Origin: Planctomycetota bacterium
Lineage (GTDB): Bacteria > Planctomycetota > Planctomycetia > Planctomycetales > Planctomycetaceae
Assembly: GCA_046341255.1 (NCBI GenBank)
Contig: JBKDRW010000597.1
Span: forward strand, 2,295-66,294
Length of the DNA: 64,000 bases
Direction: 5' to 3'
Part shown: positions 214-55,038 of the stretch, one piece after another
How the letters are laid out: each line of letters begins with the position of its first letter
Numbering within the stretch: position 1 is the stretch's first letter
Notes under the pieces: model-generated
Database searches by the model: none
Told to the model about the DNA's origin: nothing
The model's input: the letters and a program-made list of their open reading frames with translations, nothing else
Position numbers and translations under genes: made by a program

Positions 214-1278
214 ATGGCCTCGGATGCGACATCACTTTTTAATGTGGAAGTTCACGTGAGGTGGGTAATGACGAAGCCGCGCGTGGTCGGCAATATGGCA
301 GATAAGGCGAGGATGTGGGTGTGCTTGCTAAGTCTTCACCTCTTGCTGCCGGTTCGCGAGTTGAGAGCTGACGACTCTGCAACTCTGAAGATGCTTTACC
401 TTGCTCAGGTCGCAGCAGAGTCAGCGTTTCCTTCTGGAGAACTTCATGCCACTGTCGTCGACGAGTGGGCGAAGCGGGAGGCAGACGTCGTCATTCAGTG
501 GCGCGGCGAAAGTTGTTATATTCGGGCTACCTGTAAGGAAACGATGACATTATCGGAGGAACAAATTCCTGAAGTGCGGGAAGTTGAGCAAATCTATACT
601 CCCGGTGTTTGGATCTTTTCCGAACCGAAAGCAAAAATTGTTCAGCGCGTGTTGGACAAGAGGATGTCGGGCTGGTCGCAGCTTAAGCTGATGCCAAAAG
701 ATGCCTGGTTCTGTTTGGCACCAGAGAGTCAGAGAACCTGGTCGCAGAAGTTAAAGCAGCAAATGGATCCAGGTGGGCCCTGGACGACAGACATTCAGGA
801 ATTGCCTGACGGGGTTTGGGAGGTCACCGATACCGATAAACAAAGCGGCGATCTGTGTGTGACCGTTTATGACACTCGCAAGGCCGGAAATGTCGTGAGG
901 TATGAGTGTATTCCGGTTGGCGAAAGCAATCAGTATCGATTGAGAGGAGAATATGGTTGGGCTTACGTGGATGATAGTCGCTGGGCCCTGAAGTCTTATA
1001 CGTATCAGCTGACAACCAGGGCAGATGAGAATTTTGAAAAGTGTCCATCTTTCAGCATCAAAGTGAAGGAATTCAATCCCAATCCGTCGATCTCGGTCAA
1101 TCGCTTCGAGATGAGTTCGCTGACTCTGAGAAAGGGTACTCTGGTGGAAGAACTTGGGGCCAAAGAGCGTCGCTATCGAATTGGGGATAAAGAGGGGCCT
1201 GAGGCAGGGATATCTGAGGAAGTCTTCAGGGCTCTCATTGAGATCGGAAAAGATAAGGGATTCGGTGCTGCGAAGTAG
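214..1278 (+). CDS. hypothetical secreted protein; probable paralog of the 18856..19848 product (first visible gene of cassette copy 1)
   Basis: 354-aa ORF. The in-frame Met at 295 is followed by a signal-peptide-like stretch (MADKARMWVCLLSLHLLLPV), so the true start may be 268 or 295. It shows weak but ordered by-eye similarity to the 330-aa product of 18856..19848 (ES..SGxxHxT, then [IV][QE]W[RS][GE][ED]..Y[IF], then V[KD][ES]F[NE]P). It sits in the same position directly upstream of a C39-like gene. No family recognised. Confidence 0.55.
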   Translation: MASDATSLFNVEVHVRWVMTKPRVVGNMADKARMWVCLLSLHLLLPVRELRADDSATLKMLYLAQVAAESAFPSGELHATVVDEWAKREADVVIQWRGESCYIRATCKETMTLSEEQIPEVREVEQIYTPGVWIFSEPKAKIVQRVLDKRMSGWSQLKLMPKDAWFCLAPESQRTWSQKLKQQMDPGGPWTTDIQELPDGVWEVTDTDKQSGDLCVTVYDTRKAGNVVRYECIPVGESNQYRLRGEYGWAYVDDSRWALKSYTYQLTTRADENFEKCPSFSIKVKEFNPNPSISVNRFEMSSLTLRKGTLVEELGAKERRYRIGDKEGPEAGISEEVFRALIEIGKDKGFGAAK

Positions 1279-1503
1279 TGTTCATCGGTGACTGTGATCC
1301 GCATTTTCACATTGCCGGGCGAGCCTCTCCTCAGATGAGTGATCAGGCTGCATTCACACGTTGCACCGGCTTTCACGGGGCGTTGTCGGATGTGCCGCTC
1401 GGACCCTGGCAAGTTCTGGAATCTGATCTGTATGAATCGCTGAAGCCTCTTTATGACGTACTCGCATACACCCCTGCAACATGAGTCATCTTTGGTCAAA
1501 ACA

Positions 1504-3162
1504 ATGATGCTTACCCCGAGAAATTCAGGTCGCGGAATTTGGATCGGCGTGCCACTGCAGTGGATTGTCTGCATTTTTGTATTGCTGACGTTTCGTCCAA
1601 TCTTTGCTGAGGAGGAAGTCCCGCTAAGGTGTGGCAGCAACTGCTTGTACGTTGCCGCTGGCATCTTAGATAAAGCTCCTGCATCGCTGGAAGCAGTGGA
1701 AGAAATTCTTGGAGAGCCGGAGCGAAATGGCTATTCACTTCAGCGATTAGCAGAAGGAGCGAAGAAGATCGGTCTGGAAGCGATTCCTGTGCGCACGTCC
1801 ATTGGTAATTTGATCGCGCGCAGGGAGCGATTTGTGTGCATTGCGCATTTGTCAAAAGGTCACTTTGTCATTCTGGCTGATGTGGCAGACCAGTCTGTTC
1901 AGGTCATCGATCCTCCGACAAACTCCATTCTTCCCATCCAGACTGTGGCGAATCTGTGGGATGGGACAGCCCTGCTTGTTTCTCTCGCGCCTTTGTTATC
2001 TGAGGAAGAGCTTTCTCAAAGGCTCAGGATTGCCGCGATGGGAAAGGCGGCAGCATGTTTCATCGGGCTTGTTTCAGTCGCTGGGGCCGGATGGATTTTC
2101 GTCAGAAGGCACCGGAGAATGATCTCAATCGGGTGTCTTTGCATGTTCATTTTCCTCGGAGTTCCAGTTGGGTGCCATCAAAGCGATTCTGTCTCTGAGG
2201 AACGCTCAAGCCCACAAGAGGAAATCGGACCACAAATTGTTTTTGACTCACATTTAGTCGATTTCGGCATGCTCGAATTGACTATTGGCTCCGATCGGCA
2301 CAGGTCAGCGATTCGAGTGCGCAATTCCGGCACGGCTCCATTGATTCTGGGGTCAATCAAATTGTCTTGCGGATGTCTTTCAGCGCTTCCTCGTCAATCT
2401 GTTTTGTCTCCTGGCGAAGAGACAGAGATTGATATTGAGGTGTCTATTCAGCAACCCGGAGAGCACGCGGGCTCGCTGGAGGTGTCTTCCAACTGCGCGA
2501 AAACTCCGGTGGAGCGGTTGAGTCTGCGATGGAATGCAGCAGGACCCTTCGAACTCGATTTTCCAGAAATTGACCTCGGCCGTCTTCGTCCGAATGCGGT
2601 CGAGAAGAGACGGGTGCAATTTCTTAGCCGGAAGGCAACTTGTCCCGATGTCGTGTTCGGCAGCTTTCAGTCGAAATCACTGAATCCGCAATTAGAGTCT
2701 TCAATTGATGACGGAGGAGGATCATTCACGGTTCAGGTCACAGCGGGGACCCTCCCGGAATCCCACCATGAGGTGCTCGTCTTGAATTTATCCAATTGCT
2801 GGCAGGATGTGGTACGAGTACCCGTTCGTTGGGAGGTGTCTCCGCCAGTAAGTGTAACTCCAAAAGCTTTTTTTCTGGGATCGCTGGCAAGGAATGAACG
2901 AGTCCAGCGGAAACTGGTTGTTGAGGTGCCTGAAAATCGCGTTGATATTGATGTCTCGGATTTAACGACAGATCTTACGCGGTTTGTCAGCATGAATCGG
3001 TTGAGGGAGACAGCGCTGATCGTGACAATTGAGTTCACGGCACCTGAAAACCCCGGGCCGTTTGAGGCGGAGATTGACTTGAATGTCACCACTCCCGAAT
3101 TATGCGACCTTCGAATTCCTGTCTGCGGGTTGGTTGAGAATGCAAAACCGCCTACGGAGTAG
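1504..3162 (+). CDS. fusion protein: signal peptide, C39-like papain-fold cysteine peptidase domain, TM segment, then DUF1573-type Ig-like repeats
   Basis: Start moved to the MM at 1504, which is followed by a hydrophobic signal (GIWIGVPLQWIVCIFVLLTF). The C39-type catalytic Cys context is RCGSNCLYVAAG (Cys codon 1630-1632) and the His context is KGHFVILADV. A TM segment follows (ACFIGLVSVAGAGWIFV + RRHRR). The DUF1573 hallmark is present (LVDFGMLE...VRNSGTAPLILGSIKLSCGCLSA), followed by further Ig-like modules. Confidence 0.75.
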   Translation: MMLTPRNSGRGIWIGVPLQWIVCIFVLLTFRPIFAEEEVPLRCGSNCLYVAAGILDKAPASLEAVEEILGEPERNGYSLQRLAEGAKKIGLEAIPVRTSIGNLIARRERFVCIAHLSKGHFVILADVADQSVQVIDPPTNSILPIQTVANLWDGTALLVSLAPLLSEEELSQRLRIAAMGKAAACFIGLVSVAGAGWIFVRRHRRMISIGCLCMFIFLGVPVGCHQSDSVSEERSSPQEEIGPQIVFDSHLVDFGMLELTIGSDRHRSAIRVRNSGTAPLILGSIKLSCGCLSALPRQSVLSPGEETEIDIEVSIQQPGEHAGSLEVSSNCAKTPVERLSLRWNAAGPFELDFPEIDLGRLRPNAVEKRRVQFLSRKATCPDVVFGSFQSKSLNPQLESSIDDGGGSFTVQVTAGTLPESHHEVLVLNLSNCWQDVVRVPVRWEVSPPVSVTPKAFFLGSLARNERVQRKLVVEVPENRVDIDVSDLTTDLTRFVSMNRLRETALIVTIEFTAPENPGPFEAEIDLNVTTPELCDLRIPVCGLVENAKPPTE

Positions 3163-4174
3163 GGTAGACGTCTCCGTTGCAACTCCCCGAGCAATTTCGA
3201 TAAGGAGCCAACGGGGATTCACGATCCCTGAACTGCTGGTCACGATGGCTATTATAGCCATCCTTCTTTCCCTGTTGCTTCCCGCTGTCCAGTCAGCTCG
3301 AGAAACGTCGCGCAGATCAACCTGCATTTCCAGATTAGCACAGATTGGGAAAGCGATTCATGCGTTTGAATCCTCCCACAGTCGTTTGCCACTCACTGGT
3401 CAGAGATCAGACACGGATACCTCTGGTCACGTGGAATTGCTCCCATTCCTCGAACAATCAGCTTTGCAATCGCAGTTGCTGAAGGCGGACGAGCGATTTG
3501 AAGTTCGGATTTACGAGCACGTTCTGACTCAGCGAACAATCATCAGTCAGCGACTCCCGATTTTCGTTTGTCCTTCAGACTCCCGCGATGGGCGAAATAA
3601 CTTCGCTTATTGCCACGGCTGGGGTTTTGCGGCAGACCGTTTAGCAGCTCCATTTTCCAACTCAGATCGTGGAACAAGATTGACTGAGGTTACTGACGGG
3701 CTCAGCAACACGGCTGCTGTGTCTGAGAGGCTTACTGGAAGCGGAGTTTCGGAAGCGTTCGACCGACGACGGGATACATATTTTTGCGGGCTCGATCGGA
3801 TCATGTCCACCTCCGAGATCACGCCTTCGATCTTATCATTGGCCTGTGATGTTACTGATCCACCGTCTGGAAGCTTTACGTCGTTTGACTTTCATACATG
3901 GGCTTACACGTCATTTGAAAGCTCATGGTATAACCATGTCATGACTCCGAATTCCCGTCTCCCCAATTGCGCAACGCACTCCCCCGAGGTTATCAATTTC
4001 AGAACTCCATTTCTGGCTCGTGCCGGGAATTTTCGCAGCACGAGCCTTCACCGGGGATCGGTGAACACATTGTTCCTCGATGGATCTGTTCGGATCATTT
4101 CTGATGCTGTGGATGTCGATGCCTGGCGTGCCGTCGGCACTCACAGTGGGGGCGAACCGACGGGCGAGCTGTGA
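3140..4174 (+). CDS. DUF1559 family protein with type IV pilin-like N-terminal cleavage/methylation motif
   Basis: The motif RGFTIPELLVTMAIIAILLSLLLPAVQSARETSRRSTCISRLAQIGKAIHAFES is the canonical prepilin G|FT-x-x-E plus hydrophobic helix, followed by the LLPAVQ-AREAARR-C-N-LKQ-type DUF1559 start. The C-terminal LFLDGSVRIIS motif is typical of the family. Start taken at ATG 3140 and overlaps the upstream gene by 23 nt. Confidence 0.85.
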   Translation: MQNRLRSRVDVSVATPRAISIRSQRGFTIPELLVTMAIIAILLSLLLPAVQSARETSRRSTCISRLAQIGKAIHAFESSHSRLPLTGQRSDTDTSGHVELLPFLEQSALQSQLLKADERFEVRIYEHVLTQRTIISQRLPIFVCPSDSRDGRNNFAYCHGWGFAADRLAAPFSNSDRGTRLTEVTDGLSNTAAVSERLTGSGVSEAFDRRRDTYFCGLDRIMSTSEITPSILSLACDVTDPPSGSFTSFDFHTWAYTSFESSWYNHVMTPNSRLPNCATHSPEVINFRTPFLARAGNFRSTSLHRGSVNTLFLDGSVRIISDAVDVDAWRAVGTHSGGEPTGEL

Positions 4175-5909: not shown

Positions 5910-7013
5910 CTACCGAATCGGGCTGGCCGGGGCTTTGACTCTGAATCCGCACATGTAGATTCCGAGCACATAGAGGAACAGCAGCGGGATCATCATGAGC
6001 AGCATGCTCCACGGGTCTGGCGATGTCGTCAGCACCATGGACGCGATGGAAATGATCAGCACGGCGATTCGCCAGTTATCTTTGTAGGTATCGACTGTAC
6101 AGATACCGATTCTTTCGAGGAACACCATGACCATCGGTAATTGAAAACTGACACCGAACATTAAGGGCATCAGCATCGCCAGCGTGATGTATTCGGACAA
6201 GCGAGGCTGAAGGCTGACGCCGATCCATTTGTTAAAGCCGATCAGGAATTGGAGCATCATCGGGAACGCATAAAAGTACCCTGCCAGAGCGCCGATGATG
6301 AACAGACCGACGCTCATGGGAAGATAGATGTGAACATACTTGCGTTCATGAGGATACAAACCCGCCGCAATGAACAGCCACAACTGATAAAAGACCCATG
6401 GAGACGACAGCAGCAAACCGGCATAAAGGCAAATCTTCATGTACGCCATGAATCCCTCTTCGGGTTTCAACGTCGTCAGTCCCGTCGAATCCCGAATGAC
6501 TCGCTGCAACTGCGAAAACTCGGGTGCGGTCAGAACGAGGCTGACTCGCTCTGCAGGCTTTGTGGATGATTCGGACTCTGTCTTTTCCGCGTCGCCTGCT
6601 GTCTGCTCATCTTCCGCGGGGACCAGTTCGGGCACTTGTTGTCCCAGAGCTTTCAACAGTTCCTTCTTGTCGACTTCCACTCGCAGTTCATCCGACCGCA
6701 GCTTCTCTGGTTCTGGCTGTGGTTCTGTTTGAGGCCCCTTCGCCGCCTCGGAAGAAAACATGGCCTTCAGATACTCAGAGAAACTCTGTTTTGGCACGTC
6801 GACGCGAATATCTTCTTCGTCGATACCACTGTTTCGAAGCTGCGTCTCAATGGGAGTTCGCAGCAGATGGAACAGCTCTTTCCCGAAGTACAGCATCACG
6901 CCGACAGCAATCACAATCCCCACCACCGCGCGGAAGACGTGAACGCGGAGCACTTCGAGGTGCTCCCCGAAGGTCATTGTCGTATCGTCGAAAAGATCTC
7001 GAGATTTCGGCAT
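5910..7013 (-). CDS. tatC: twin-arginine translocase subunit TatC, with a large insertion in the first periplasmic loop
   Basis: The N-terminus (MTFGEHLEVLRVHVFRAVVGIVIAV) matches the TatC HLxELRxRL start. Core motifs are LKPEEGFMAYMKICLYAGLLLSSPWVFYQLWLFIAAGLYPHERKY and a C-terminal SPDPWSM. Confidence 0.85.
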   Translation of the reverse strand: MPKSRDLFDDTTMTFGEHLEVLRVHVFRAVVGIVIAVGVMLYFGKELFHLLRTPIETQLRNSGIDEEDIRVDVPKQSFSEYLKAMFSSEAAKGPQTEPQPEPEKLRSDELRVEVDKKELLKALGQQVPELVPAEDEQTAGDAEKTESESSTKPAERVSLVLTAPEFSQLQRVIRDSTGLTTLKPEEGFMAYMKICLYAGLLLSSPWVFYQLWLFIAAGLYPHERKYVHIYLPMSVGLFIIGALAGYFYAFPMMLQFLIGFNKWIGVSLQPRLSEYITLAMLMPLMFGVSFQLPMVMVFLERIGICTVDTYKDNWRIAVLIISIASMVLTTSPDPWSMLLMMIPLLFLYVLGIYMCGFRVKAPASPIR

Positions 7014-16105: not shown

Positions 16106-17161
16106 TTAATCACCCTCGCTGCGGGATCCGAATGCTCGCCAGGCTCCGGTATCGATTTCGGATGATACAAATCGAACCGATCCATCGAGCATCAGAAGGC
16201 TGACCGTCCCGTCCCGGTGCAAGCTTCGAGCGCCCACTGCACCCCAGTCTGCGACCATCAGACCTGCCGCTGGCCAGGATTCTGCCGCGAACCGATCCAG
16301 AACACAATCCGGAATGGCCGTGTTTGGCGTCAGTACATGATTGTATCCTGTATAAAGATAACTGTCTTTCACAAAATTATGCCCAGCAGACGAAGCATAG
16401 TACACGGGCGGTGCACTCAGCGCCGCTCGGCATAGCTCGACGGTCTCGTCAGCGGCTCGTTGCTCGGGATCGAATCCAAGAGACATCGCGTTCGTCATCC
16501 AGATGTCCCGCTTCGAGTCGTAAGCAGTGCGTGTCATCTGAGAAATCGTCCGTTCGCTCATGGCTGCCGTATTCGATAAGCCATCGCTGATGGAGGACAG
16601 TGCAATCGGTGTCAGTGAACTGACACCAGCAAGTGCTCCCTTTCCTCGTGCCAATTCACCTTCAGCCCCGGCTTCGTCAAAAAAGCCAACATTACTGCCG
16701 GTACAGGCTCGATAATTGACCCCTGTCGCAATGCTTTCTGAAGGACAATGAAACGCAGGTAATTCGATTGTTGACCCAAGGTGCAGGACCTGCATTTCCG
16801 GTTCTTTATCAATTCGTTCGAACAGAGCGGCCTGCTCCAGAAATGGAAGGAGCTGGACCTGCGGAGATCGCCAGGGCGTGGAGTTGCCGGTCCTGGGATC
16901 AAAGATCGTTCCAACGGGAAGGTGGCGGTATGACTGCTCAAACTGGTGCAGCGCCAGCCCGAACTGGCGAATTCGATTTTGGCAGTCAACTCGGCGAGCC
17001 GTGTCTCGCGCGGCAATCACTGCGGGAACGAGTAGTGCCAACAGGATTCCGACAACGGAAATGCTGACAAGCAGCTCAATCAATGAAATGCCTGATCGCA
17101 CGTTCCGACCGGCGCTCTGTCGTCGTTCGGAACCAACGCTCAGGTCAGGTTCACAGCGCAT
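16106..17161 (-). CDS. DUF1559 family protein with type IV pilin-like N-terminus
   Basis: The start SGISLIELLVSISVVGILLALLVPAVIAARDTARRVDCQNRIRQFGLALHQFEQSYRHLPVG is family-typical. The C-terminal LLMLDGSVRFVSSEID is also typical. Confidence 0.85.
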   Translation of the reverse strand: MRCEPDLSVGSERRQSAGRNVRSGISLIELLVSISVVGILLALLVPAVIAARDTARRVDCQNRIRQFGLALHQFEQSYRHLPVGTIFDPRTGNSTPWRSPQVQLLPFLEQAALFERIDKEPEMQVLHLGSTIELPAFHCPSESIATGVNYRACTGSNVGFFDEAGAEGELARGKGALAGVSSLTPIALSSISDGLSNTAAMSERTISQMTRTAYDSKRDIWMTNAMSLGFDPEQRAADETVELCRAALSAPPVYYASSAGHNFVKDSYLYTGYNHVLTPNTAIPDCVLDRFAAESWPAAGLMVADWGAVGARSLHRDGTVSLLMLDGSVRFVSSEIDTGAWRAFGSRSEGD

Positions 17162-17226: not shown

Positions 17227-18228
17227 CTATGGTGCGACAAGCCCGCTCATTCCAAAGACGCACTGCTTCCGACGCCCATCTGAAAGCATAAGATCAATAG
17301 GTACTTCGATGTGAAATGGGCCTGTATCTCGCGGAGTTTCAACATGCAGTTCGCAGGAAATAAGACCTGGTTTAATCACAGACTGATTCAGATGATACCT
17401 GCCGGTTGAAACAATCGTGACACCTGGGTCCTCGGACCGCAGTAGGAATTTCTGCTTCCACGAACTTCCGCCAATGACCTTACTGCGAAATGCGCCCTTC
17501 GGTTCCAGCGACACCTCATCCTGTGAGACCCAGTCGATGGGCACTAGAATGGTGCCGATGGGGTCTCGACAGGTCAGCCGGACTGATCCTCGCGAATCAC
17601 CTGGGGAATTTTGAGGAGTGACTGTGACCAGAATTTTTGTCCTGTCACCCTCGTCGATCCTTTGGATTGTACACTCTCTTGACGGGACAACCTCGGCATT
17701 CAGGAGCCAGTCACTGATAGCCGTTCGATCAGGGGTTGTGACACTCAAGGCAAGGGTTTTCGCCGTGCCACAGGTGAGTCGCCCAAAGGACAGCGATTGC
17801 GGTGACACGTCGACGGTGCTGCCCCCAACCCAGCGAATTTCACCAGTCGCGCTATAGACAGAATCGCTGGTTTCCACTCGCAGTCGCGAGGCCTTCTGAC
17901 CCAACTCACGAATTTTGACTGCAGCAGCAATCATGGTTGATTCACCTGATGCAAGCACATGCTTTTCAGGTTTAGCGGCGGTACACCCGCAAGTTGTCTC
18001 GATCCGACTGATTGAAACAGCCTTCCCAGTTCTGTTGTGGAGCTGAAACGTGACGTTGACTGGAGCGGCGTGTAACTCGATCTTCCCCAGATCCATCTGC
18101 CGAGGCTCGAGGAACAGCCCTTCGTCCGGTGTTGCGACAGGCAGATCTCTGTCAGACTTTTTCGTCAGAATTGTCTCGTCGGATGGAACCGCCGTTGGGC
18201 GACATCCGACGCACATCAAAACGCCCAA
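17227..18228 (-). CDS. DUF1573 domain protein (Ig-like repeats); N-terminus probably extends to 18270 across an in-frame TGA
   Basis: DUF1573 hallmark MDLGKIE...FQLHNRTGKAVSISRIETTCGCTAA. It is homologous by eye to the C-terminal two thirds of the 1504..3162 product. The TTG start at 18228 leaves only a truncated lipoprotein-like signal (GVLMCVGC); see findings. Confidence 0.75.
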   Translation of the reverse strand: MGVLMCVGCRPTAVPSDETILTKKSDRDLPVATPDEGLFLEPRQMDLGKIELHAAPVNVTFQLHNRTGKAVSISRIETTCGCTAAKPEKHVLASGESTMIAAAVKIRELGQKASRLRVETSDSVYSATGEIRWVGGSTVDVSPQSLSFGRLTCGTAKTLALSVTTPDRTAISDWLLNAEVVPSRECTIQRIDEGDRTKILVTVTPQNSPGDSRGSVRLTCRDPIGTILVPIDWVSQDEVSLEPKGAFRSKVIGGSSWKQKFLLRSEDPGVTIVSTGRYHLNQSVIKPGLISCELHVETPRDTGPFHIEVPIDLMLSDGRRKQCVFGMSGLVAP

Positions 18229-18271
18229 AGCAAGAGCGTATCACATGAAAAGTTTTTGGAGTTCGGGCATA

Positions 18272-18856
18272 TTAAACTCCTGACTTTCGCCAAAGTTTGT
18301 TTCGGATGGTGACCACACATCCGGTGACTGCAAGCAAGACCCCGCCCCAGATGGAGCATTGTTTTCCAACGTCACGCCACCACTTGGCTGAAACGATCGT
18401 CTCTTCCGGCACCAGAGCAGTTCTTGCCAGCAGGAGTGCGTGTCCATCCCACTCCGTCAAAAAAGTCGCTGCTGGCAATGTGTAACTTTCCGGAGGATCA
18501 GAAATGGTCACCGTTTGCCCGTCGTATTTCGTGATCAAGACGAAATGTCGGCGTTTCAAATGGGCGATACACGCAAAGGGATGCTGACGGTCATTCAGTG
18601 CAGGCAATGAAGTCTGAACCGCCAGAGTGTGGAAATTCAATGCCGTTGCCTGCTCCTGCAACTGACTCAAAGAGACTCCATCCTTCTCTGCGGGCAGGCG
18701 TTTCAGCAACTCCTCGAAGGTTACGGGAACGGTTTCGTCAAGCGAATGCGCGGCGACGAAAAGGCATCTCGCGCCGCAGTCAGCCTGAGACTGTGCCCTC
18801 AAGCATTCTGCCTGAGTCATCAACACGAACAGCAGGCCAAACAATCTTCCGTTCAT
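18272..18856 (-). CDS. stand-alone secreted C39-like cysteine peptidase domain with C-terminal TM anchor
   Basis: Signal peptide MNGRLFGLLFVLMTQAECLRA. The catalytic Cys context is DCGARCLFVAAH and the His context is RRHFVLITKY. The C-terminal TM is IWGGVLLAVTGCVVTI. The start overlaps the upstream stop (TAATG). Confidence 0.75.
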   Translation of the reverse strand: MNGRLFGLLFVLMTQAECLRAQSQADCGARCLFVAAHSLDETVPVTFEELLKRLPAEKDGVSLSQLQEQATALNFHTLAVQTSLPALNDRQHPFACIAHLKRRHFVLITKYDGQTVTISDPPESYTLPAATFLTEWDGHALLLARTALVPEETIVSAKWWRDVGKQCSIWGGVLLAVTGCVVTIRNKLWRKSGV

Positions 18857-19848
18857 TATCGGGGGTCCATGAAACTGCCGGGGCGTATGCGTTTGACATG
18901 TTCCTGAAGTGCCCGTTCCAGGTCAGATGCCCCATCCACGCCCTCCGTCCATTCTCTTATTGTGCCATCAGCAAGTTGCTCTGATACCATGGCACCTTTC
19001 GGTACAGGGCCAAAAGACGAGAGCCGCGCAGGCCCGGAAAATGCACGTTTCGTGAGAGGTTCGAATGAGTCAACGACACATTCGACGATTCGGACAGGAT
19101 CCGATCCCGCCTGATCGTGAGATGAAATCATCTTGCTGCGTGAAGGAAACCACAGATCGTCATTGACGCATTTCCATTCGCGCGTCGCGTGAATGTAAGA
19201 ATCGCCAGTGTCCTTGTGCCAGACGAGGTGCATTTCGGTACAAAGACCCGCTTGATCAAGGTCGAAGATCCGTTTTGCCGTATCCGAAGGAAACGTTGTG
19301 TTCAGTTCAACCAGGCGGTTCCGCGTTTCAACGGAACGCTCAAAAAGTCTTCCGAATCTGAGCGTGGTGGGCTGCGGCTGCAACAAACTCAGCGGATTAT
19401 TCGTCCCCTCGTACGGGCCAGTGAGAACCAGATATGTCACGGGATCCGGTCGCCAAGCCGCAGCTTTATCGTGCTGGCCGGGTGTGATGTCATAGGAGAT
19501 AAACGAGACCGCATTCCGTTCCGTGCTGGAGGATCGCTTGAGTTCATAGCCACCGGAAAACAGCAGTCTGATGTCATGATCCAGTGCTGTTCGCCCTCTT
19601 GAACCGGACTTTGCGTGCTGCATATTGCCGTCGAAATACATGTAGTCTTCCGACCATTCCACCAGACCCTTCAATTGAAACAGATCTTCTCCCGGAACAA
19701 ACTGATTGCTCCATGTGAAATGCATCCGCCCGGACTTGCATCTGTCCATATGCGATTCATAGGCATTCCTCAGAAGTGAAATTGTCAGATCGTCGTCGAA
19801 TGAGATCGGGAGCGCAGCAAACAGAGCTGCCAAAGCAGCGTACACCAT
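18856..19848 (-). CDS. hypothetical protein; probable paralog of the 214..1278 product
   Basis: 330-aa ORF with a short hydrophobic N-terminus (MVYAALAALFAALP). An AAGGA run lies about 9 nt upstream of the ATG. Similarity is ordered with the cassette-1 protein. It is translationally coupled to the C39-like gene. Confidence 0.6.
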   Translation of the reverse strand: MVYAALAALFAALPISFDDDLTISLLRNAYESHMDRCKSGRMHFTWSNQFVPGEDLFQLKGLVEWSEDYMYFDGNMQHAKSGSRGRTALDHDIRLLFSGGYELKRSSSTERNAVSFISYDITPGQHDKAAAWRPDPVTYLVLTGPYEGTNNPLSLLQPQPTTLRFGRLFERSVETRNRLVELNTTFPSDTAKRIFDLDQAGLCTEMHLVWHKDTGDSYIHATREWKCVNDDLWFPSRSKMISSHDQAGSDPVRIVECVVDSFEPLTKRAFSGPARLSSFGPVPKGAMVSEQLADGTIREWTEGVDGASDLERALQEHVKRIRPGSFMDPR

Positions 19849-20396
19849 TCCGGAATCCTTTCGACTTGCTGATTCGATAAACTGTGGTCCTGCAGTTGAA
19901 AGCCCTCAACTGGCTCAGGGGACCTTCGTCCTCCGGGGCCGTTTTCTTCGACGGTCAGCTCAAGGAACTCCACGACCGGAGGGGCAGCAAACTTCAGGCA
20001 ACCCTGGCTTGCCTCCTCTTCTTCAATGGGCTCTGCGTTCATATCCACCACACAATCTTCACCGATGAGCGTACAGGGGCGTCTCTCGATGCAGATTCCC
20101 GGATGCTCGGGCGAGCAATAGCTTTCAAAAAACCAAAAGATACACCTGAACCAACTTCCGCTGAGGGACGGAACGCTGATCATTGCCTCGCCAACACATG
20201 GTCCCTCTGCGGGGCAGGATACTGTCGCTGCACAATCGTAGCGGCTGATGTTGCGACACCTTCGATATCCGCCCCGCAGTGAGTCAAGCTCGTCCGGGGC
20301 AAGTCCTCGCCCATGAACGGCGGCGTTTGATGATGTGATACACATTACTGACGCAGACAGCCCGAGTGTCAGCAGCACTGATGGCACAATCTTCAT
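19785..20396 (-). CDS. Cys-rich protein with a double-glycine leader-like motif (candidate C39 substrate)
   Basis: 203-aa ORF. The N-terminal hydrophobic segment is MKIVPSVLLTLGLSASV. The motif LAPDELDSLRGG follows (20268-20303), then a region with 12 Cys. The 3' end overlaps the next gene by 64 nt. No family recognised. Confidence 0.55.
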   Translation of the reverse strand: MKIVPSVLLTLGLSASVMCITSSNAAVHGRGLAPDELDSLRGGYRRCRNISRYDCAATVSCPAEGPCVGEAMISVPSLSGSWFRCIFWFFESYCSPEHPGICIERRPCTLIGEDCVVDMNAEPIEEEEASQGCLKFAAPPVVEFLELTVEENGPGGRRSPEPVEGFQLQDHSLSNQQVERIPEWCTLLWQLCLLRSRSHSTTI

Positions 20397-38399: not shown

Positions 38400-40886
38400 G
38401 TGACTCCTGTCGCCACAACACTGCCTCGCGTGAGAGATGGCCTGAGCATTCAGGCGATCTCAAAGTCCGAGTATGTCGTGAAACGATCTGATAGTCGCGA
38501 ATACTTCAGCGTTGGTCCCTATGAAGCTTTCTTGCTGCCGCTCTTTGACGGTCATCATTCCGCAGACGAGATCCGCGAGAAATTCGAATCGCAATTCCGC
38601 TCTCCTCTGAGTGAATCCGATCTGCAGGACTTCATCGATGCCGTAAAGCCGATGGGCTTGTTTTCCCCGAAGTCGAGGAAGAGTTCAGCCACGACCACCA
38701 TTGCCGAGCAATTCTCGAAAGAAGCAGCAGTCGGCCCATCAGAAATGAGCGACTCGGAAGTCGACAAGCAGTCCGTCCGGTCGAGAAAGAAGACGGTTCG
38801 TGATCAGAGCATTCTCTACTTTCGCGTGCCTCTGTTCGATCCTGACAAGTCGCTGGGACGACTCGTGCGACTGGTGCCTTTTGTGTGGACAAAGGGATTT
38901 CTCGCCCTTGTTTTCTTCGCAGTCCTGGCGGCCCTGAGCATCACGATCGAAGCGGGTGCTCAACTGGCGGCGGGCGTGGCTCGCATGAATACCTGGCAGG
39001 ACGCTGCCACATTCCTGTTCGTAGTCATCATCTGCGCCTCGATCCATGAGGCCGCACATGGAGCCACGCTGAGGCACTTCGGAGGCCATGTGCACGACTC
39101 AGGCATTCTGTTCATGTTCTTTACACCCTGCTTGTACTGCAATGTGTCCGACGCATGGCTGATCCCTGAAAAATGGAAACGACTGGCCATCACGGCGGCG
39201 GGTGGCATCAGCGACCTCGGACTGTGGGCGCTGGGTATCTTCGCATGGCGCCTGACCGTCTCGGAAACGCTCATCAATCAGATCGCCCTGTCCATGATTA
39301 CGATGTGTGGGGCCAGAAGTCTGATCAACTTCAATCCGCTGCTTCGACTGGATGGTTATTACCTGTTGAGCGACTGGCTTTCGATTCCCAATCTTCGCAC
39401 CCGGGCCATGGATCACTGGATGGGGCACCTTCGCTGGCTGCTGTGGGGAGCAGCGAAACCGCCTTATGCCGAACACCACCGCGCGCTGCTGACTTACGGT
39501 GTGATCTGCTGGTTTTTTGCTCTGACCTTTCTCAATGTCATCTTCATCCGCTTCTTTGAATATATGGGTGGGCAATTCGGAATCACCGGACTCCTGCTGG
39601 TCGGATTGCTGCTGACGTTTGCGTGTCGTCGAGTGTTCAAAGGACTTTTTGAAAGTGAGTTGGTCACCATGATCCGGAAACGTCCTGGTCGAACCACAGT
39701 CTGGGCTGTTGGCATTCTGGCCGCACTGGCCTTGCTGTTTGGCGTGCCCGTTCGAAGTACAACCAGCGGTGACTTTGAGGTACGTCCAGGAAGCGTCGTG
39801 CAGATTCATGCCCCTGTGTCTGGAGTCATTTTTGCCATACATGCTGAAGATTGTGCGGTCGTGGAAGCGGGACAGTTGCTGGCAGAAATGACGTCGGCAT
39901 CGCTCGACTCAGAAATCCTCAAGACGGAAGATCTGCTGGCAGAAAGTGAAGCCAACCTGCGGCGGCTCAGATCCGGGGCGCGGCAGGAGGAAGTGGAAGC
40001 GGCGAAGGATCGAGTTCGTCGACTGACAGAATGGTACGAACTGGGGGCGGATGAACTGGAGCAGGCGCGGCTGGCTCATGAACAGGATCTGCTGGTTCAG
40101 GAGCATCGTGTCCGCGAAATCACGGCGGAACTGAACAATTCCCGCGAGGATCTTGTGCATTCTGAAAATCTCTATCGCCTCGGGGCGCTGGCGGGCGCTC
40201 AACTGAGACAGCAGAAGCTCGAACTTCTGCAGGTGGAATCGAGGCTGGCACAGGTCCAGGCGTCCCTGACCGCAGCAAAGGCTCTGGGGGTCAAATCGAA
40301 GGAGGCTGAGATTGCTCGTCGCGCCCAGGAGCTGGCAGATGCAAAGTCCAGACTGGAGTTGCTGGAAGCGGGAAGTCGCCCCGAAGAAATTGCAGCCGAA
40401 GTCGCCCGAAGAGAGCGTGCGTCACACGAACTGACGTTTCAGAAATCCCGCCGCGAAAAACTCAGAATTGTCGCGCCCTCATCCGGCATCTTTTCAGCGC
40501 CGCGGCTGAAGGAACGCGTTGGAATGGCGGTCGCTCAGGATTCCCTGTTTGGCTCCATTGAAAAGCCGGAGACATCTCGGGTGGAAATCTCTGTCAGTGA
40601 AGATGATGCGACTCAGCTTCGACCTGGGCAGCCCGTGACGCTCAAGGCCCGCGCGATTCCCTTTGAGACTTTTGAAGCCACCGTCGAATCAATTTCTCCT
40701 GTCGCACAAAAGAACGCAACGACCGGACAGAACACGGTGCTTGTGCATTGTCAAATTCAAAATCCGGACGGTAGGCTCAAGTCCGGCATGACGGGCTTTG
40801 GCCGTGTCACTCGAGGCTGGAACACCATCGGAATGCTGCTGTTGACCAGAAGCTTGCGCTACCTGCGAACGGAATTCTGGTGGTAG
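38400..40886 (+). CDS. fusion protein: PqqD/RRE-like N-domain, M50 (site-2 protease) membrane metalloprotease, HlyD-type periplasmic adaptor
   Basis: The N-terminal roughly 85 aa resemble PqqD (YFSVGPYEAFLLPLFDGHHSADEIREKF...LQDFIDAVKPMGLF). The HExxH motif is ASIHEAAHGATL and the second S2P motif is NFNPLLRLDGYY, with several TM segments. Long coiled coils follow with RQEEVEAAK / RPEEIAAEV turns, then the barrel motif IVAPSSGIF typical of HlyD/MFP proteins. GTG start, with GGGAAG 8 nt upstream. Confidence 0.8.
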   Translation: MTPVATTLPRVRDGLSIQAISKSEYVVKRSDSREYFSVGPYEAFLLPLFDGHHSADEIREKFESQFRSPLSESDLQDFIDAVKPMGLFSPKSRKSSATTTIAEQFSKEAAVGPSEMSDSEVDKQSVRSRKKTVRDQSILYFRVPLFDPDKSLGRLVRLVPFVWTKGFLALVFFAVLAALSITIEAGAQLAAGVARMNTWQDAATFLFVVIICASIHEAAHGATLRHFGGHVHDSGILFMFFTPCLYCNVSDAWLIPEKWKRLAITAAGGISDLGLWALGIFAWRLTVSETLINQIALSMITMCGARSLINFNPLLRLDGYYLLSDWLSIPNLRTRAMDHWMGHLRWLLWGAAKPPYAEHHRALLTYGVICWFFALTFLNVIFIRFFEYMGGQFGITGLLLVGLLLTFACRRVFKGLFESELVTMIRKRPGRTTVWAVGILAALALLFGVPVRSTTSGDFEVRPGSVVQIHAPVSGVIFAIHAEDCAVVEAGQLLAEMTSASLDSEILKTEDLLAESEANLRRLRSGARQEEVEAAKDRVRRLTEWYELGADELEQARLAHEQDLLVQEHRVREITAELNNSREDLVHSENLYRLGALAGAQLRQQKLELLQVESRLAQVQASLTAAKALGVKSKEAEIARRAQELADAKSRLELLEAGSRPEEIAAEVARRERASHELTFQKSRREKLRIVAPSSGIFSAPRLKERVGMAVAQDSLFGSIEKPETSRVEISVSEDDATQLRPGQPVTLKARAIPFETFEATVESISPVAQKNATTGQNTVLVHCQIQNPDGRLKSGMTGFGRVTRGWNTIGMLLLTRSLRYLRTEFWW

Positions 40887-53600: not shown

Positions 53601-53829
53601 AGATGAAAATGGGTCTCACGAGTTCGCGAGAGCTCGGAAAGGCCCGTCTCGCGACGAAAAGACCATCAGGAGACTGACGTCTCCCGCTCGCTAAATGTGA
53701 CTCGGAGTTCGTACGAACTCTGCTACGGATGGCAGGGAGAGTGAACGATTGGGACAATCGTTCTACAATGGGCGTTTCGAAGTGGTGAATGAAACTAATG
53801 TCGCACGAGCGTCGGGGAGTTGTCGTCTG

Positions 53830-55038
53830 ATGAATGAGTCGCTGGACTTTGCCCTGAGGACTGCCGGACGTGTGCAGTCGGAACTGCTCGATGTGATGAA
53901 GCGAGAATACGTCGGCAAGGATGAAGTCATCGACCTGCTCGGTATCTGTCTGGTCGCCGGCGAGAACCTCTTTTTGCTCGGTCCGCCGGGAACTGCCAAG
54001 AGTGCGCTGGTCAGATCACTGGCCGCGAAACTGGATGGTCGAGTCTTTGACTATCTGCTGACACGATTTACCGAGCCGTCCGAATTGTTCGGGCCGTTTG
54101 ACATTCGCAAGCTGCGTGATGGGGATCTGCTGACGAACACGGAAGGCATGTTGCCCGAAGCGGATATTGTGTTTCTCGACGAACTGCTGAACGCCAACAG
54201 CGCGATTCTGAATAGTCTGCTGATGGCATTGAATGAACGCATCTTTCGTCGCGGCCGAGAGACTCGAAAGCTGGGTTTTGTGCTCACCGTCGGCGCGAGC
54301 AATCGGTTACCCGAAGATGACGCACTGGCGGCGTTGTTCGATCGTTTCCTGTTGCGAGTTCGATCGGACAACGTTCCGGCCGAGATGCTGACCAGCGTTC
54401 TCGAAGCGGGCTGGCAGCTTCAGAAGTCCGAAGCGTCACGCGGGTCTGCGGGAAATCGAATCGCGATCGAAGAACTACGAGCGATGCAGAGCTGCATCCC
54501 GCTGATTGATCTTGGTCAGACTCGAACCGTTTACGTGGGGTTGATCAATCGACTGCGACACGCAGGGCTGGAGATTTCCGATCGTCGAGCCGTTCGACTG
54601 CAGCGACTGGCCGCGGCCAGTGCCATGATGTGCGGTCGGTCGTCGGTGGATGTGTCGGACTTCTGGGTGATGCGATACATCTGGGACACGATGGAACAGG
54701 TCGAGGTGCTGGCGAAAATCGTCAACGACACGATTAAGTCCAGTCACGCCGGGTCTGCAACAAGGGTCGACGCAGACGACGAAAGCCCGGAGGCACAGGT
54801 CAGCGTTCATCCGCGTTCCGTCTCGATGGATGCGCCGAACCCGGCACATCTCAGTCGGGACCTCGATCAGATCGATGCGTTGCTGGCGAGCGCTGGGGAC
54901 GATGGACATCAGAAAAGCTGGCTGCGAGATCGACTGAGTCTGCTGTTGTCACGAGTCGAATGGGTTCAGCAGCCAGATGCTCGTGAGTTTCTCAGGGGGC
55001 GCATCCAGTCGTTGATGAGCATAGCGGCCACATCATGA
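53830..55038 (+). CDS. MoxR-family AAA+ ATPase, RavA-like
   Basis: Walker A is LLGPPGTAKS, Walker B is DIVFLDELLNAN, sensor-1 is VGASN, and ALFDRFLLRV is present. The N-terminal 200 aa align by eye with E. coli RavA (FDYLLTRFTEPSELFGP...AILNSLLMALNERIFRRG). GGGGAG lies 10 nt upstream of ATG 53830. Confidence 0.85.
   Translation: MNESLDFALRTAGRVQSELLDVMKREYVGKDEVIDLLGICLVAGENLFLLGPPGTAKSALVRSLAAKLDGRVFDYLLTRFTEPSELFGPFDIRKLRDGDLLTNTEGMLPEADIVFLDELLNANSAILNSLLMALNERIFRRGRETRKLGFVLTVGASNRLPEDDALAALFDRFLLRVRSDNVPAEMLTSVLEAGWQLQKSEASRGSAGNRIAIEELRAMQSCIPLIDLGQTRTVYVGLINRLRHAGLEISDRRAVRLQRLAAASAMMCGRSSVDVSDFWVMRYIWDTMEQVEVLAKIVNDTIKSSHAGSATRVDADDESPEAQVSVHPRSVSMDAPNPAHLSRDLDQIDALLASAGDDGHQKSWLRDRLSLLLSRVEWVQQPDAREFLRGRIQSLMSIAATS

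What the first reader, a model, noticed from the sequence alone, without database searches (positions are those of the whole stretch)
19785..20396. Cys-rich protein with a near-consensus double-glycine leader motif heading the C39-like operon
**Seen in the sequence.** Residues 32-43 are LAPDELDSLRGG (nt 20303-20268). Against the classical double-glycine leader consensus L-S-x-x-E-L-x-x-I-x-G-G, this matches L(-12), E(-8), L(-7), a hydrophobic residue at -4, and G(-2)G(-1). After GG the protein carries 12 Cys residues (YRRCRNISRYDCAATVSCPAEGPCV...), then an acidic tail.

Two readings are possible. The ORF may start at 20396, giving a Sec-like hydrophobic N-terminus in front of the GG motif. Alternatively it may start at the internal Met (MCITSSNAAVHGRGLAPDELDSLRGG), which gives a 26-residue leader of classical length.

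**Established knowledge.** C39 peptidases cleave after GG in such leaders.

**Inference.** This is the candidate substrate of the C39-like peptidase encoded two genes downstream. It would be a disulfide-rich secreted peptide or protein matured outside a canonical peptidase-ABC transporter.
Basis: partly seen in the sequence, partly recalled or inferred. Interest (0 to 1): 0.65.

Follow-up and report, generated by a model that had tools for sequence, protein, structure and literature searches.

The report
Sec-exported cysteine-rich protein with double-glycine propeptide
A small secreted, disulfide-rich protein of a planctomycete carries, just behind its export signal, the classic "double-glycine" cleavage tag, and it always sits at the head of an operon encoding a membrane-anchored, apparently periplasm-facing C39 protease, which suggests that this well-known leader/protease pair works here outside the cytoplasm and without its usual ABC transporter.

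Summary
The ORF, the LAPDELDSLRGG motif at nt 20303-20268 and the 12 Cys after it are all there. The gene is real: full-HMMER searching found homologs with an invariant L32, E36, R41, G42, G43 and a fixed Cys scaffold.

Two corrections:
- The conserved CDS is 145 codons. A sister strain has TAG at codon 146 where the window has GAG. Residues 146-203, including two of the 12 Cys and the 64-nt overlap with the next gene, are a stop-loss tail.
- The N-terminal signal-peptide reading is right. The internal-Met reading is not conserved.

The link to the C39 gene is strongly supported. In 10 of the 11 cassettes or lineages with readable upstream DNA, the first gene encodes a signal peptide, a 17-23 aa propeptide ending in a [LF][ST]xx[ED]Lxx[LIV]xG[GAS]-type motif (relaxed in L020), and a Cys-rich domain. 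In these 10, a LolA-like protein gene or the C39 cassette follows. The eleventh (P0014, L005) has the motif but no linked cassette in its 806-nt contig.

The C39 protein keeps Cys/His/Asp. It has an N-terminal signal and a C-terminal membrane anchor, so its domain should face the periplasm. No ABC transporter is linked.

Best reading: a pre-pro-protein exported by Sec and cleaved after GG in the periplasm. Cleavage itself is untested. I rate it a new variant of a known kind.

The parts
19962..20396 (-). Conserved CDS of the Cys-rich head protein (codons 1-145)
   Evidence: Homologs P0012-P0014 (E=5e-28 to 4e-24) end within about 3 residues of codon 145. The sister strain L012 has TAG at codon 146. 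Omega over codons 1-145 is 0.20.
20322..20396 (-). Predicted Sec-type signal peptide (aa 1-25, MKIVPSVLLTLGLSASVMCITSSNA; likely cleavage after SNA)
   Evidence: An n-region Lys, a hydrophobic core and small residues at -3/-1 are seen here. The same n-h-c layout occurs in all 10 head proteins analysed (alignment). No dedicated predictor was available, so the cleavage site is inferred.
20268..20321 (-). Propeptide (aa 26-43, AVHGRGLAPDELDSLRGG) containing the double-glycine-type motif (aa 32-43, nt 20303-20268)
   Evidence: L32, E36, R41, G42 and G43 are invariant among close homologs. G42 is invariant across the wide family. Position -1 is G, A or S in the 10 loci that keep the motif in register; L030 reads WGRG. 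Sub-threshold hits of the homolog leaders to GG-leader models TIGR04149 and ComC.
19962..20267 (-). Mature Cys-rich domain (aa 44-145; 10 Cys, WFxCIxWFxES motif)
   Evidence: C47, 61, 67, 85, 94, 102, 108 and 115 are invariant in 8 diverse family members. No Pfam or NCBIfam family matches. The AF2 model is unusable, with pLDDT 38.
19785..19961 (-). Non-conserved read-through tail (codons 146-203 plus stop), overlapping the next gene by 64 nt
   Evidence: Window GAG against sister-strain TAG at codon 146. Omega is 0.77 in the tail against 0.20 upstream. No homolog has the tail.
18856..19848 (-). Gene X: secreted 330-aa protein with no Pfam hit and a weakly LolA-like predicted fold
   Evidence: Homologs follow the head gene in every cassette. 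The AF2 model has pLDDT 54, and the Foldseek top hits are LolA, LprG and LppX (E from 6e-4, low TM). An AAGGA sits 8 nt before the ATG.
18272..18856 (-). Stand-alone C39 cysteine peptidase with an N-terminal signal-like segment (aa 5-19) and a C-terminal TM (aa 167-186) followed by a basic tail
   Evidence: Pfam PF03412 E=2e-20. C27, H104 and D120 align to ComA C17, H96 and D112 and are invariant in 9 homologs.
17227..18270 (-). DUF1573 (Ig-like) protein; its lipoprotein-type signal is interrupted by an in-frame TGA at 18243..18241
   Evidence: Pfam PF07610 E=1e-14. The junction reads MPELQKLFM*YALALGVLMCVGC. Orthologs have intact lipoprotein signals.
16106..17161 (-). DUF1559 / H-X9-DG prepilin-like protein, last gene of the cassette
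   Evidence: Pfam PF07596 E=2e-39 plus N_methyl. It is present in all cassettes.
214..4174 (+). Paralogous cassette: X-like protein (214/295..1278), a C39-TM-TM-DUF1573 fusion (1453..3162) and DUF1559 (3083..4174). No head gene lies in the 213 nt upstream.
   Evidence: C39 is 36% identical (E=2e-26), DUF1559 36% (E=4e-43) and DUF1573 22% (E=3e-10). The X protein joins the family alignment. The upstream ORF end is not head-like.

Best explanation
The gene encodes a pre-pro-protein with three parts:
- a Sec-type signal peptide of about 25 aa;
- an 18-aa propeptide with the sequence logic of a double-glycine leader (L-x-x-x-E-L-x-x-L-x-G-G);
- a roughly 100-aa domain with 10 cysteines.

Proposed mechanism:
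1. The precursor is exported across the cytoplasmic membrane by Sec.
2. The signal peptide is removed, or it temporarily anchors the precursor in the membrane.
3. The Cys-rich domain folds oxidatively in the periplasm.
4. The co-encoded C39 cysteine peptidase cuts after Gly43 and releases the mature protein starting at Tyr44. The catalytic domain of that peptidase is predicted to face the periplasm, held by a C-terminal membrane anchor.

Shown here:
- the gene is real and conserved;
- the motif is conserved in register;
- the head gene is physically linked to a five-gene cassette (head, LolA-like X, C39, DUF1573 lipoprotein, DUF1559 pseudopilin-like) in 10 of the 11 cassettes or lineages with upstream DNA;
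- the C39 catalytic triad is intact;
- no ABC transporter is present.

Inferred, not shown: Sec export, periplasmic orientation of C39, cleavage at GG, and what the mature protein does. I guess a secreted or surface effector such as a bacteriocin-like toxin, a lectin or a partner of the pseudopilin; this is only a guess.
For: **Family and motif**
- Full-HMMER search found homologs with 38-49% identity. Alignment gives invariant L32, E36, R41, G42, G43 and 10 invariant Cys.
- Pro-regions in other loci:
  - L002/L003/L011: LSTEELLSLRGG|Y, followed by the X gene and then C39.
  - L013: LSSAECRSIFGS|E.
  - L014: LTDQELWQVRGA|D.
  - L017: FTIDDLKELRGG|G.
  - L016: LGRVELWRISGG|A.
  - L020: HIALRGG|G.
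  - L031: LTVAESIRVIGG|D.
- Each of these sits directly upstream of X and then C39.
- In MAG JTS-AC449, P0013 lies at one contig end and X-C39-DUF1573-DUF1559 at another.
- All analysed head proteins have a basic n-region and a hydrophobic core, and the GG ends at residues 38-49. That leaves a propeptide of about 17-23 aa, the size of a classical GG leader.

**The peptidase**
- Pfam E=2e-20.
- The catalytic Cys, His and Asp align to ComA and are invariant in 9 homologs. All nine have an N-terminal hydrophobic signal and a C-terminal TM followed by basic residues.
- The paralog fusion C39-TM-RRHRR-TM-DUF1573 gives the same topology.

**Precedent and independent hints**
- FapD of Pseudomonas is a Sec-exported C39 peptidase shown to be active in the periplasm; its substrate is unknown (PMC5557850).
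- Leader regions of P0012 and P0013 give sub-threshold hits to GG-leader models TIGR04149 (E=0.002-0.007) and ComC (E=0.23).

**Coding evidence**
- Omega is 0.20 over codons 1-145.
Against: - There is no experimental evidence of cleavage or of protein topology. No signal-peptide or TM predictor was available, so topology rests on hydropathy and the positive-inside rule.
- Classical GG leaders are cytoplasmic and Sec-independent. A GG propeptide behind a Sec signal has no characterised precedent that I could find.
- L030 has WGRG instead of a clean GG. L020 has lost the E-L half of the motif.
- The oxyanion Gln is offset by one residue relative to ComA, and it is absent in the window's paralog.
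- In the L002/L011 lineage an in-frame TAA separates the signal peptide from the propeptide. In this window's lineage the head gene has lost its stop codon and the DUF1573 gene has an in-frame TGA in its signal. Particular copies may therefore be decaying.
- The family is rare: only 4 clusters among 1.84 billion representatives.
Confidence: 0.6

Rival explanations
1. The conserved L..EL..L.GG segment is a docking or structural element of a Sec-secreted Cys-rich protein and is not cleaved by the co-encoded C39. On this reading it is an amphipathic helix bound by the LolA-like X protein or by C39 acting as a chaperone. The peptidase then has a different substrate, such as X, the DUF1573 lipoprotein or something outside the cassette, as is still debated for FapD.
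For: - The substrate of the only studied periplasmic C39, FapD, is unknown, and Fap proteins lack canonical C39 sites.
- L030 and L020 have degraded motifs yet keep the cassette.
- The X proteins contain a semi-conserved SGGYEL in close homologs.
Against: - The catalytic triad is invariant, so C39 here is not a degenerate C39-like chaperone domain.
- The invariant residue is exactly the -2 Gly. Position -1 is restricted to G, A or S, the known C39 specificity.
- The motif always sits at a fixed distance after the signal peptide and immediately before the first Cys of the folded domain.
- The SGGYEL of X is not conserved across the family.
Confidence: 0.2
2. In this particular genome the cassette is a decaying, non-functional copy. 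The family is real, but here the head gene has lost its stop codon and the DUF1573 gene has a nonsense codon in its signal sequence, while a second paralogous cassette in the same window may carry the function.
For: - Stop loss at codon 146 relative to the sister strain and to all homologs.
- An in-frame TGA in the DUF1573 signal is present in two independent assemblies.
- An analogous in-frame TAA occurs in the L002/L011 lineage, where omega rises to 0.49.
- NCBI's annotation holds the X and C39 proteins but not this ORF.
Against: - Codons 1-145 are under purifying selection against the sister strain (omega 0.20).
- All Cys residues and the motif are intact.
- X, C39 and DUF1559 are full-length ORFs.
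- A C-terminal extension need not inactivate the protein.
- This rival is compatible with the main mechanism for the family as a whole.
Confidence: 0.15
3. The protein is a classical cytoplasmic double-glycine-leader bacteriocin or peptide precursor. The hydrophobic N-terminus is not a Sec signal, and the protein is processed and exported by a peptidase-containing ABC transporter (PCAT) encoded elsewhere.
For: - The motif matches the classical consensus.
- In L002 a GTG directly after the in-frame TAA would give an 18-aa leader, MSQASELSTEELLSLRGG, with no signal peptide.
Against: - All other homologs have an n-h-c signal-peptide layout in front of the motif.
- L011 has GTA, not a start codon, at that position.
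- No ABC transporter lies in any cassette or among the large ORFs scanned in the window.
- The linked C39 is stand-alone, with a predicted extracytoplasmic domain.
- A mature part of 100 aa with 10 Cys is unlike class II bacteriocins.
Confidence: 0.04
4. The ORF is a chance open frame and not a gene.
For: - The word-index search found only the query itself.
- There is no Pfam or NCBIfam hit.
- It is not in NCBI's protein set for this contig.
- The ORF as drawn overlaps the next gene by 64 nt.
Against: - Homologs at E=1e-24 to 1e-28 with a conserved Cys scaffold.
- Conserved synteny.
- Omega is 0.20.
- The overlap is explained by the stop loss.
Confidence: 0.01

Closest known systems
Double-glycine (GG) leader peptides with C39 peptidase domains of PCAT/ComA-type ABC transporters (class II bacteriocins, ComC, lantibiotics, the CtA substrate of PCAT1)
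   Same: - The leader logic is the same: hydrophobic residues at -4, -7 and -12, an acidic residue at -8, and G-[GAS] at -2/-1.
- The peptidase is a bona fide PF03412 member with Cys/His/Asp aligned to ComA.
- The propeptide length of about 18-23 aa equals that of a classical leader.
   Different: - The motif lies behind a Sec-type signal peptide rather than at the extreme N-terminus.
- The peptidase is not fused to, or encoded next to, an ABC transporter. It has its own signal and a C-terminal anchor, which predicts a periplasmic rather than cytoplasmic active site.
- The cargo is a 100-aa protein with 10 Cys rather than a short peptide.
FapD, the Sec-exported periplasmic C39 peptidase of the Pseudomonas functional-amyloid (Fap) operon (PMC5557850)
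   Same: - It is a stand-alone C39 peptidase with a Sec signal.
- It is active in the periplasm.
- It is encoded in an operon with Sec-exported proteins and is needed for their biogenesis.
   Different: - FapD's substrate and recognition sequence are unknown, and Fap proteins lack canonical GG-leader motifs.
- Here a near-canonical motif is conserved in one specific co-encoded protein.
- The operon content is different: no FapF-type barrel and no amyloid subunits.
- The C39 here carries a C-terminal TM anchor.
- Direct sequence relatedness to FapD was not tested, because no FapD sequence was available.
LapG/LapA (periplasmic BTLCP cysteine protease cleaving the N-terminal retention module of an adhesin at a di-alanine site). 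This comparison is from my own knowledge and is an analogy only.
   Same: A periplasmic cysteine protease removes an N-terminal module after a pair of small residues, which changes the fate of a secreted protein.
   Different: - The protease family is different (DUF920/C93, not C39).
- The substrate type is different.
- LapG is regulated by c-di-GMP through LapD.
- No homology is claimed.
Eukaryotic-style pre-pro Cys-rich secreted peptides such as defensins and conotoxins. This is an architectural analogy from my own knowledge.
   Same: The architecture is the same: signal peptide, short pro-region, disulfide-rich mature domain.
   Different: The proteins are unrelated in sequence, and the processing enzymes (furin-like) are different.

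Membership tests
Peptidase C39 (PF03412), tested on the downstream gene 18272..18856 | Scores above Pfam's gathering threshold | tested here: met
   73.4 bits against a cut-off of 22, E=2e-20. The paralog scores 41.6 bits.
Peptidase C39 (PF03412), tested on the downstream gene 18272..18856 | Catalytic Cys, His and Asp present | tested here: met
   C27, H104 and D120 align to ComA C17, H96 and D112. They are invariant in 9 homologs.
Peptidase C39 (PF03412), tested on the downstream gene 18272..18856 | Oxyanion-hole Gln about 6 residues before the catalytic Cys | tested here: inconclusive
   Gln is present at -5 and -3 (QSQADC) but not at -6. It is missing in the window's paralog and in several homologs.
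PCAT (peptidase-containing ABC transporter) system | C39 domain fused to, or encoded with, an ABC transporter (TMD plus NBD) | tested here: not met
   The protein is 194 aa with only the C39 domain plus one C-terminal TM. NCBIfam PCAT models match only their N-terminal 130 positions and score far below cut-off. No ABC gene lies in any of the cassettes or among the large window ORFs scanned.
Double-glycine leader peptide (bacteriocin-type signal sequence) | Consensus L-S-x-x-E-L-x-x-I-x-G-G immediately before the mature part | tested here: met
   The window has LAPDELDSLRGG. Homologs have LSEKELQTLRGG, LSTEELLSLRGG and LTDAEIATIRGG among others. Sub-threshold hits to TIGR04149 and ComC.
Double-glycine leader peptide (bacteriocin-type signal sequence) | The leader is the extreme N-terminus, with no Sec signal and with cytoplasmic processing | tested here: not met
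   A signal-peptide-like segment of about 20-26 aa precedes the motif in all 10 head proteins analysed. The L002 lineage is the exception, and only because of an in-frame stop.
Double-glycine leader peptide (bacteriocin-type signal sequence) | Cleavage after GG by a C39 peptidase | not testable with these tools
   This needs biochemistry or N-terminal mapping.
FapD-like periplasmic C39 peptidases | Sec signal and periplasmic location of the C39 domain | tested here: inconclusive
   An N-terminal hydrophobic segment (aa 5-19) and a C-terminal TM with a basic tail are seen in all 9 homologs, which predicts a periplasmic domain. No dedicated predictor or experiment was available.
FapD-like periplasmic C39 peptidases | Encoded in a fapA-F operon with amyloid subunits and a FapF barrel | tested here: not met
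   The cassette genes are the Cys-rich head, LolA-like X, DUF1573 and DUF1559. No Fap families were hit.

The most novel reading that the evidence does not exclude
The five-gene cassette (Sec/GG pre-pro Cys-rich protein, LolA-like protein, membrane-anchored periplasmic C39, DUF1573 lipoprotein, DUF1559 pseudopilin-like protein) is a previously undescribed, Planctomycetaceae-specific maturation and delivery system. In it, double-glycine processing has moved from the cytoplasmic face of an ABC transporter to the periplasm. It would supply the first defined enzyme-substrate pair for the uncharacterised class of periplasmic C39 peptidases. The mature disulfide-rich protein would be handed on to the cell surface or the outside, possibly through the pseudopilin.
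Probability: 0.45. Interest if true: 0.75.

Novelty: new variant of a known kind. Interest (0 to 1): 0.62.

Why it matters
- Double-glycine leaders and C39 peptidases are textbook partners of ABC-transporter export, with cleavage on the cytoplasmic side. A conserved GG-type propeptide placed behind a Sec signal, next to a C39 peptidase that appears to face the periplasm, would show the recognition module has been re-used in a different compartment and a different export route.
- It would give a concrete, testable substrate for periplasmic C39 peptidases. The only studied example, FapD, still has no known substrate.
- It assigns a first functional hypothesis to a recurrent Planctomycetaceae cassette built from domains of unknown function (DUF1573, DUF1559) that are hugely expanded in that phylum.
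- It defines a new family of bacterial disulfide-rich secreted proteins, which could be toxins, lectins or signals.
- A short, portable, periplasm-active cleavage tag would also be a useful tool.

Tried and rejected
**Searches for relatives**
- The word-index homolog search with the 203-aa ORF found only the query itself. The exhaustive HMMER search was needed.
- Its fifth hit, P0015 (a 777-aa repeat protein), matches only the short WFRCxxWF stretch. I set it aside as unrelated.
- Pfam and NCBIfam give no family for the head protein or its relatives.
- The genome scan with the head-protein alignment found only the MAG already known. The metagenome scan found nothing.

**Structure**
- AF2 on the 5-sequence alignment gave pLDDT 38, which is unusable, so I ran no fold search on it.
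- The PDB profile search gave only non-significant hits: scytovirin at E=0.8 and the leader of the PCAT1 substrate CtA at E=1.4. I treat these as leads only.

**Upstream of the window**
- I tried to reach DNA upstream of window position 1. The look-up through the IlvE-like gene returned only a 6.5-kb contig that does not reach the window start. The NCBI record for P0005 is not on record.

**Contig join in MAG JTS-AC449**
- I looked for a sequence overlap joining the two contig ends and found none. Adjacency there is probable but not shown.

**Other rejected ideas**
- Internal-Met start: the Met is not conserved.
- Lipoprotein reading of 'SVMC': the position is not conserved in homologs.
- The promoter/terminator scan of the operon region gave nothing above the shuffled expectation.
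- Literature searches for C39 with DUF1573, DUF1559 or Planctomycetes found no description of this cassette.
Full report
**1. The observation**

The ORF 19785..20396 (- strand, 203 aa) is present. Residues 32-43 read LAPDELDSLRGG at nt 20303-20268. Twelve Cys follow the GG.

Two genes downstream, 18272..18856 encodes a protein that matches Pfam Peptidase_C39 at E=2e-20 (73 bits, cut-off 22).

A relaxed version of the motif occurs only once in the six-frame translation of the 64-kb window, where 0.24 occurrences are expected. A single match is therefore not significant on its own. The weight comes from conservation.

**2. Is it a gene, and what are its true limits?**

The fast word-index search found only the query, and Pfam and NCBIfam found nothing. 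The exhaustive HMMER search of 1.84 billion representatives found three true homologs:
- P0012, 119 aa;
- P0013, 143 aa;
- P0014, 143 aa.

Their E-values run from 5e-28 to 4e-24 and their identity from 40% to 49%.

In the alignment, L32, E36, R41, G42, G43 and ten Cys are invariant. All homologs stop within about three residues of query position 145.

A 98%-identical sister strain (L012) has TAG at codon 146, where the window has GAG. The conserved protein is therefore 145 aa. Residues 146-203 are a stop-loss read-through tail; they hold two of the twelve Cys and cause the odd 64-nt overlap with the next gene.

Nei-Gojobori counts against L012 give omega 0.20 for codons 1-145 and 0.77 for the tail. 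The numbers are small, but the direction is as expected for a coding core and an unconstrained tail.

NCBI's annotation of this contig holds the neighbouring proteins but not this ORF. That explains why it looks like an orphan.

**3. Anatomy of the protein**

All family members analysed share one layout:
- a basic n-region (1-2 K/R);
- a hydrophobic core (best 10-residue Kyte-Doolittle mean 2.1-3.1);
- small residues that could serve signal peptidase I (in the window, SNA|A after residue 25);
- a 17-23 aa segment ending in the GG-type motif;
- the first Cys, 2-7 residues after the motif.

The protein is therefore a pre-pro-protein: signal peptide, then a propeptide the size and sequence of a classical double-glycine leader, then a Cys-rich domain of about 100 aa.

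Independent but sub-threshold hints that the propeptide resembles true GG leaders:
- NCBIfam TIGR04149 (GG-leader RiPP precursors) at E=0.002-0.007 and ComC at E=0.23, both on the leader regions of P0012 and P0013;
- a non-significant PDB profile hit to the leader of CtA, the PCAT1 substrate.

AF2 could not model the domain (pLDDT 38), so its fold is unknown.

**4. Context: a conserved five-gene cassette**

In the window the operon on the - strand has five genes:

| Gene | Coordinates | Identity |
|---|---|---|
| head | 20396..19785 | Cys-rich pre-pro-protein |
| X | 19848..18856 | 330 aa, no Pfam hit |
| C39 | 18856..18272 | Peptidase_C39 |
| DUF1573 | 18228..17227 | Ig-like |
| DUF1559 | 17161..16106 | H-X9-DG prepilin-like |

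A paralogous cassette lies at the window start. It holds an X-like gene (214..1278), a C39-TM-TM-DUF1573 fusion (1453..3162) and DUF1559 (3083..4174).

I searched with the X and C39 proteins and scanned genome and metagenome collections with C39 alignments. This recovered cassettes in other Planctomycetaceae and Planctomycetota MAGs.

Wherever upstream DNA exists, the first gene is a 136-155 aa protein with a signal peptide, a propeptide and a Cys-rich domain:

| Locus | Pro-region and first mature residues |
|---|---|
| L002/L003/L011 | LSTEELLSLRGG\|YRKC |
| L013 | LSSAECRSIFGS\|ERGEC |
| L014 | LTDQELWQVRGA\|DTGC |
| L017 | FTIDDLKELRGG\|GSIC |
| L016 | LGRVELWRISGG\|ATFQCC |
| L020 | HIALRGG\|GQIC |
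| L031 | LTVAESIRVIGG\|DENHKAC |
| L030 | AEAANAWGRG\|YLC (atypical) |

In MAG JTS-AC449, P0013 sits at one contig end and the rest of the cassette at another.

An alignment of eight diverse heads keeps eight Cys and the -2 Gly invariant. They are therefore one fast-evolving family.

Loci L010, L019 and L027-L029 are truncated upstream and give no information. P0014's 806-nt contig shows no X gene within 266 nt downstream.

No cassette contains an ABC transporter. None was found among the large window ORFs I scanned either.

**5. The peptidase**

C27, H104 and D120 align with the ComA catalytic residues C17, H96 and D112. They are invariant in nine homologs.

All nine homologs have a short N-terminal hydrophobic segment ending 8-15 residues before the catalytic Cys. 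They also have a C-terminal hydrophobic segment followed by a basic tail.

By the positive-inside rule the catalytic domain is extracytoplasmic. The paralog fusion, C39-TM-RRHRR-TM-DUF1573, fits the same topology.

This is the opposite of PCATs, whose C39 domain works on the cytoplasmic face. A precedent exists: FapD of Pseudomonas is a Sec-exported C39 peptidase shown to be active in the periplasm, and its substrate is still unknown (PMC5557850).

**6. The other cassette proteins**

- The X proteins are homologous across all cassettes. A medium-low-confidence AF2 model (pLDDT 54) looks most like LolA, LprG and LppX carriers (Foldseek E from 6e-4, low TM). This is a lead, not a finding.
- The DUF1573 proteins are lipoproteins in other loci.
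- DUF1559 carries a prepilin-type N-terminus.

**7. Mechanism proposed**

1. The pre-pro-protein is exported by Sec.
2. Its Cys-rich domain folds oxidatively in the periplasm.
3. The membrane-anchored periplasmic C39 recognises the amphipathic L..EL..L helix and cuts after G43. This releases a mature protein of about 102 aa starting at Y44.

Gene reality, motif conservation, linkage, the intact catalytic triad and the absence of an ABC partner are shown here. Export route, topology, cleavage and downstream fate are inferred.

I put 0.6 on cleavage by this C39. The main rival (0.2) is that the segment is a docking element and the C39 cuts something else.

The function of the mature protein is unknown. 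A secreted effector (bacteriocin-like, lectin-like) or a partner of the pseudopilin are guesses.

**8. Complications**

- In the L002/L003/L011 lineage an in-frame TAA sits exactly between the signal peptide and the propeptide. It occurs in three samples and two diverged variants. L002 has a GTG right after it, but L011 has GTA. Omega downstream of the stop is 0.49, against 0.22 for the neighbouring X gene.
- In the window's lineage the DUF1573 signal sequence is interrupted by an in-frame TGA, seen in two independent assemblies.
- Together with the stop loss in the head gene, these suggest that some copies are decaying, or that something unusual happens at these stops. I could not decide which.

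**9. Novelty and verdict**

Literature searches found no description of this cassette, and none of a Sec-preceded GG propeptide.

The components belong to known kinds (C39 peptidase, GG-type leader). The arrangement does not: it is periplasmic, Sec-dependent, ABC-independent, and carries a large disulfide-rich cargo inside a DUF1573/DUF1559 cassette.

I rate it a new variant of a known kind, with interest 0.62.

Noticed in passing
window 18241..18270 (- strand), between the C39 stop and the DUF1573 ORF: The DUF1573 gene's lipoprotein-type signal is split by an in-frame TGA: MPELQKLFM*YALALGVLMCVGC. The same TGA is present in an independent assembly from another sample (L025). Orthologs in other loci have intact lipoprotein signals. 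It could be a pseudogene, read-through or re-initiation; I could not tell.
   Followed up: partly
L002 668..670, L003, and L011 about 1480..1482: In the P0012 lineage an in-frame TAA lies exactly between the signal peptide (MKKAILVVAFSCVLVPLVSAAGSSV) and the GG propeptide of the head gene. It is conserved in three samples and two diverged variants. L002 has a GTG after it and L011 has GTA. All Cys downstream are intact. Omega is 0.49.
   Followed up: partly
window 214..4174 (+ strand): A second, paralogous cassette sits at the window start. In it, C39 and DUF1573 are fused into one 569-aa ORF through two TM segments. No head gene lies in the 213 nt upstream; only the last 62 codons of an unrelated ORF with no Pfam hit run in from outside the window.
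   Followed up: partly
L013 68..1390 and 6105..6767: The whole cassette in MAG RE-26jul17-197 is flanked by a duplicated fragment of about 220 codons of the same gene, with near-identical protein sequence on both sides. This suggests the cassette arrived by insertion or recombination and may be mobile.
   Followed up: no
L016 4374..4832: The head protein of this cassette has a twin-arginine-like n-region (MSRRTLLALL). In this locus the order of the last two genes is swapped, with DUF1559 before DUF1573.
   Followed up: no
window 53749..55880 (+ strand): A MoxR-vWA-beta-propeller ternary system is present, with bpMoxR at E=2e-95 and bpX2 at E=2e-42. It is unrelated to the finding.
   Followed up: no
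window 38400..40886 (+ strand): An 828-aa protein has HlyD-type membrane-fusion domains, about 18 kb from the cassette. No adjacent ABC transporter was seen among the ORFs scanned, and I found no evidence linking it to the cassette.
   Followed up: no
window 17227..18228 (DUF1573 protein): It gives a sub-threshold NCBIfam hit to OS_HP2 family (seleno)protein (E=1.4e-8, 35 bits against a cut-off of 100), reflecting the shared CGC-containing DUF1573 core.
   Followed up: no
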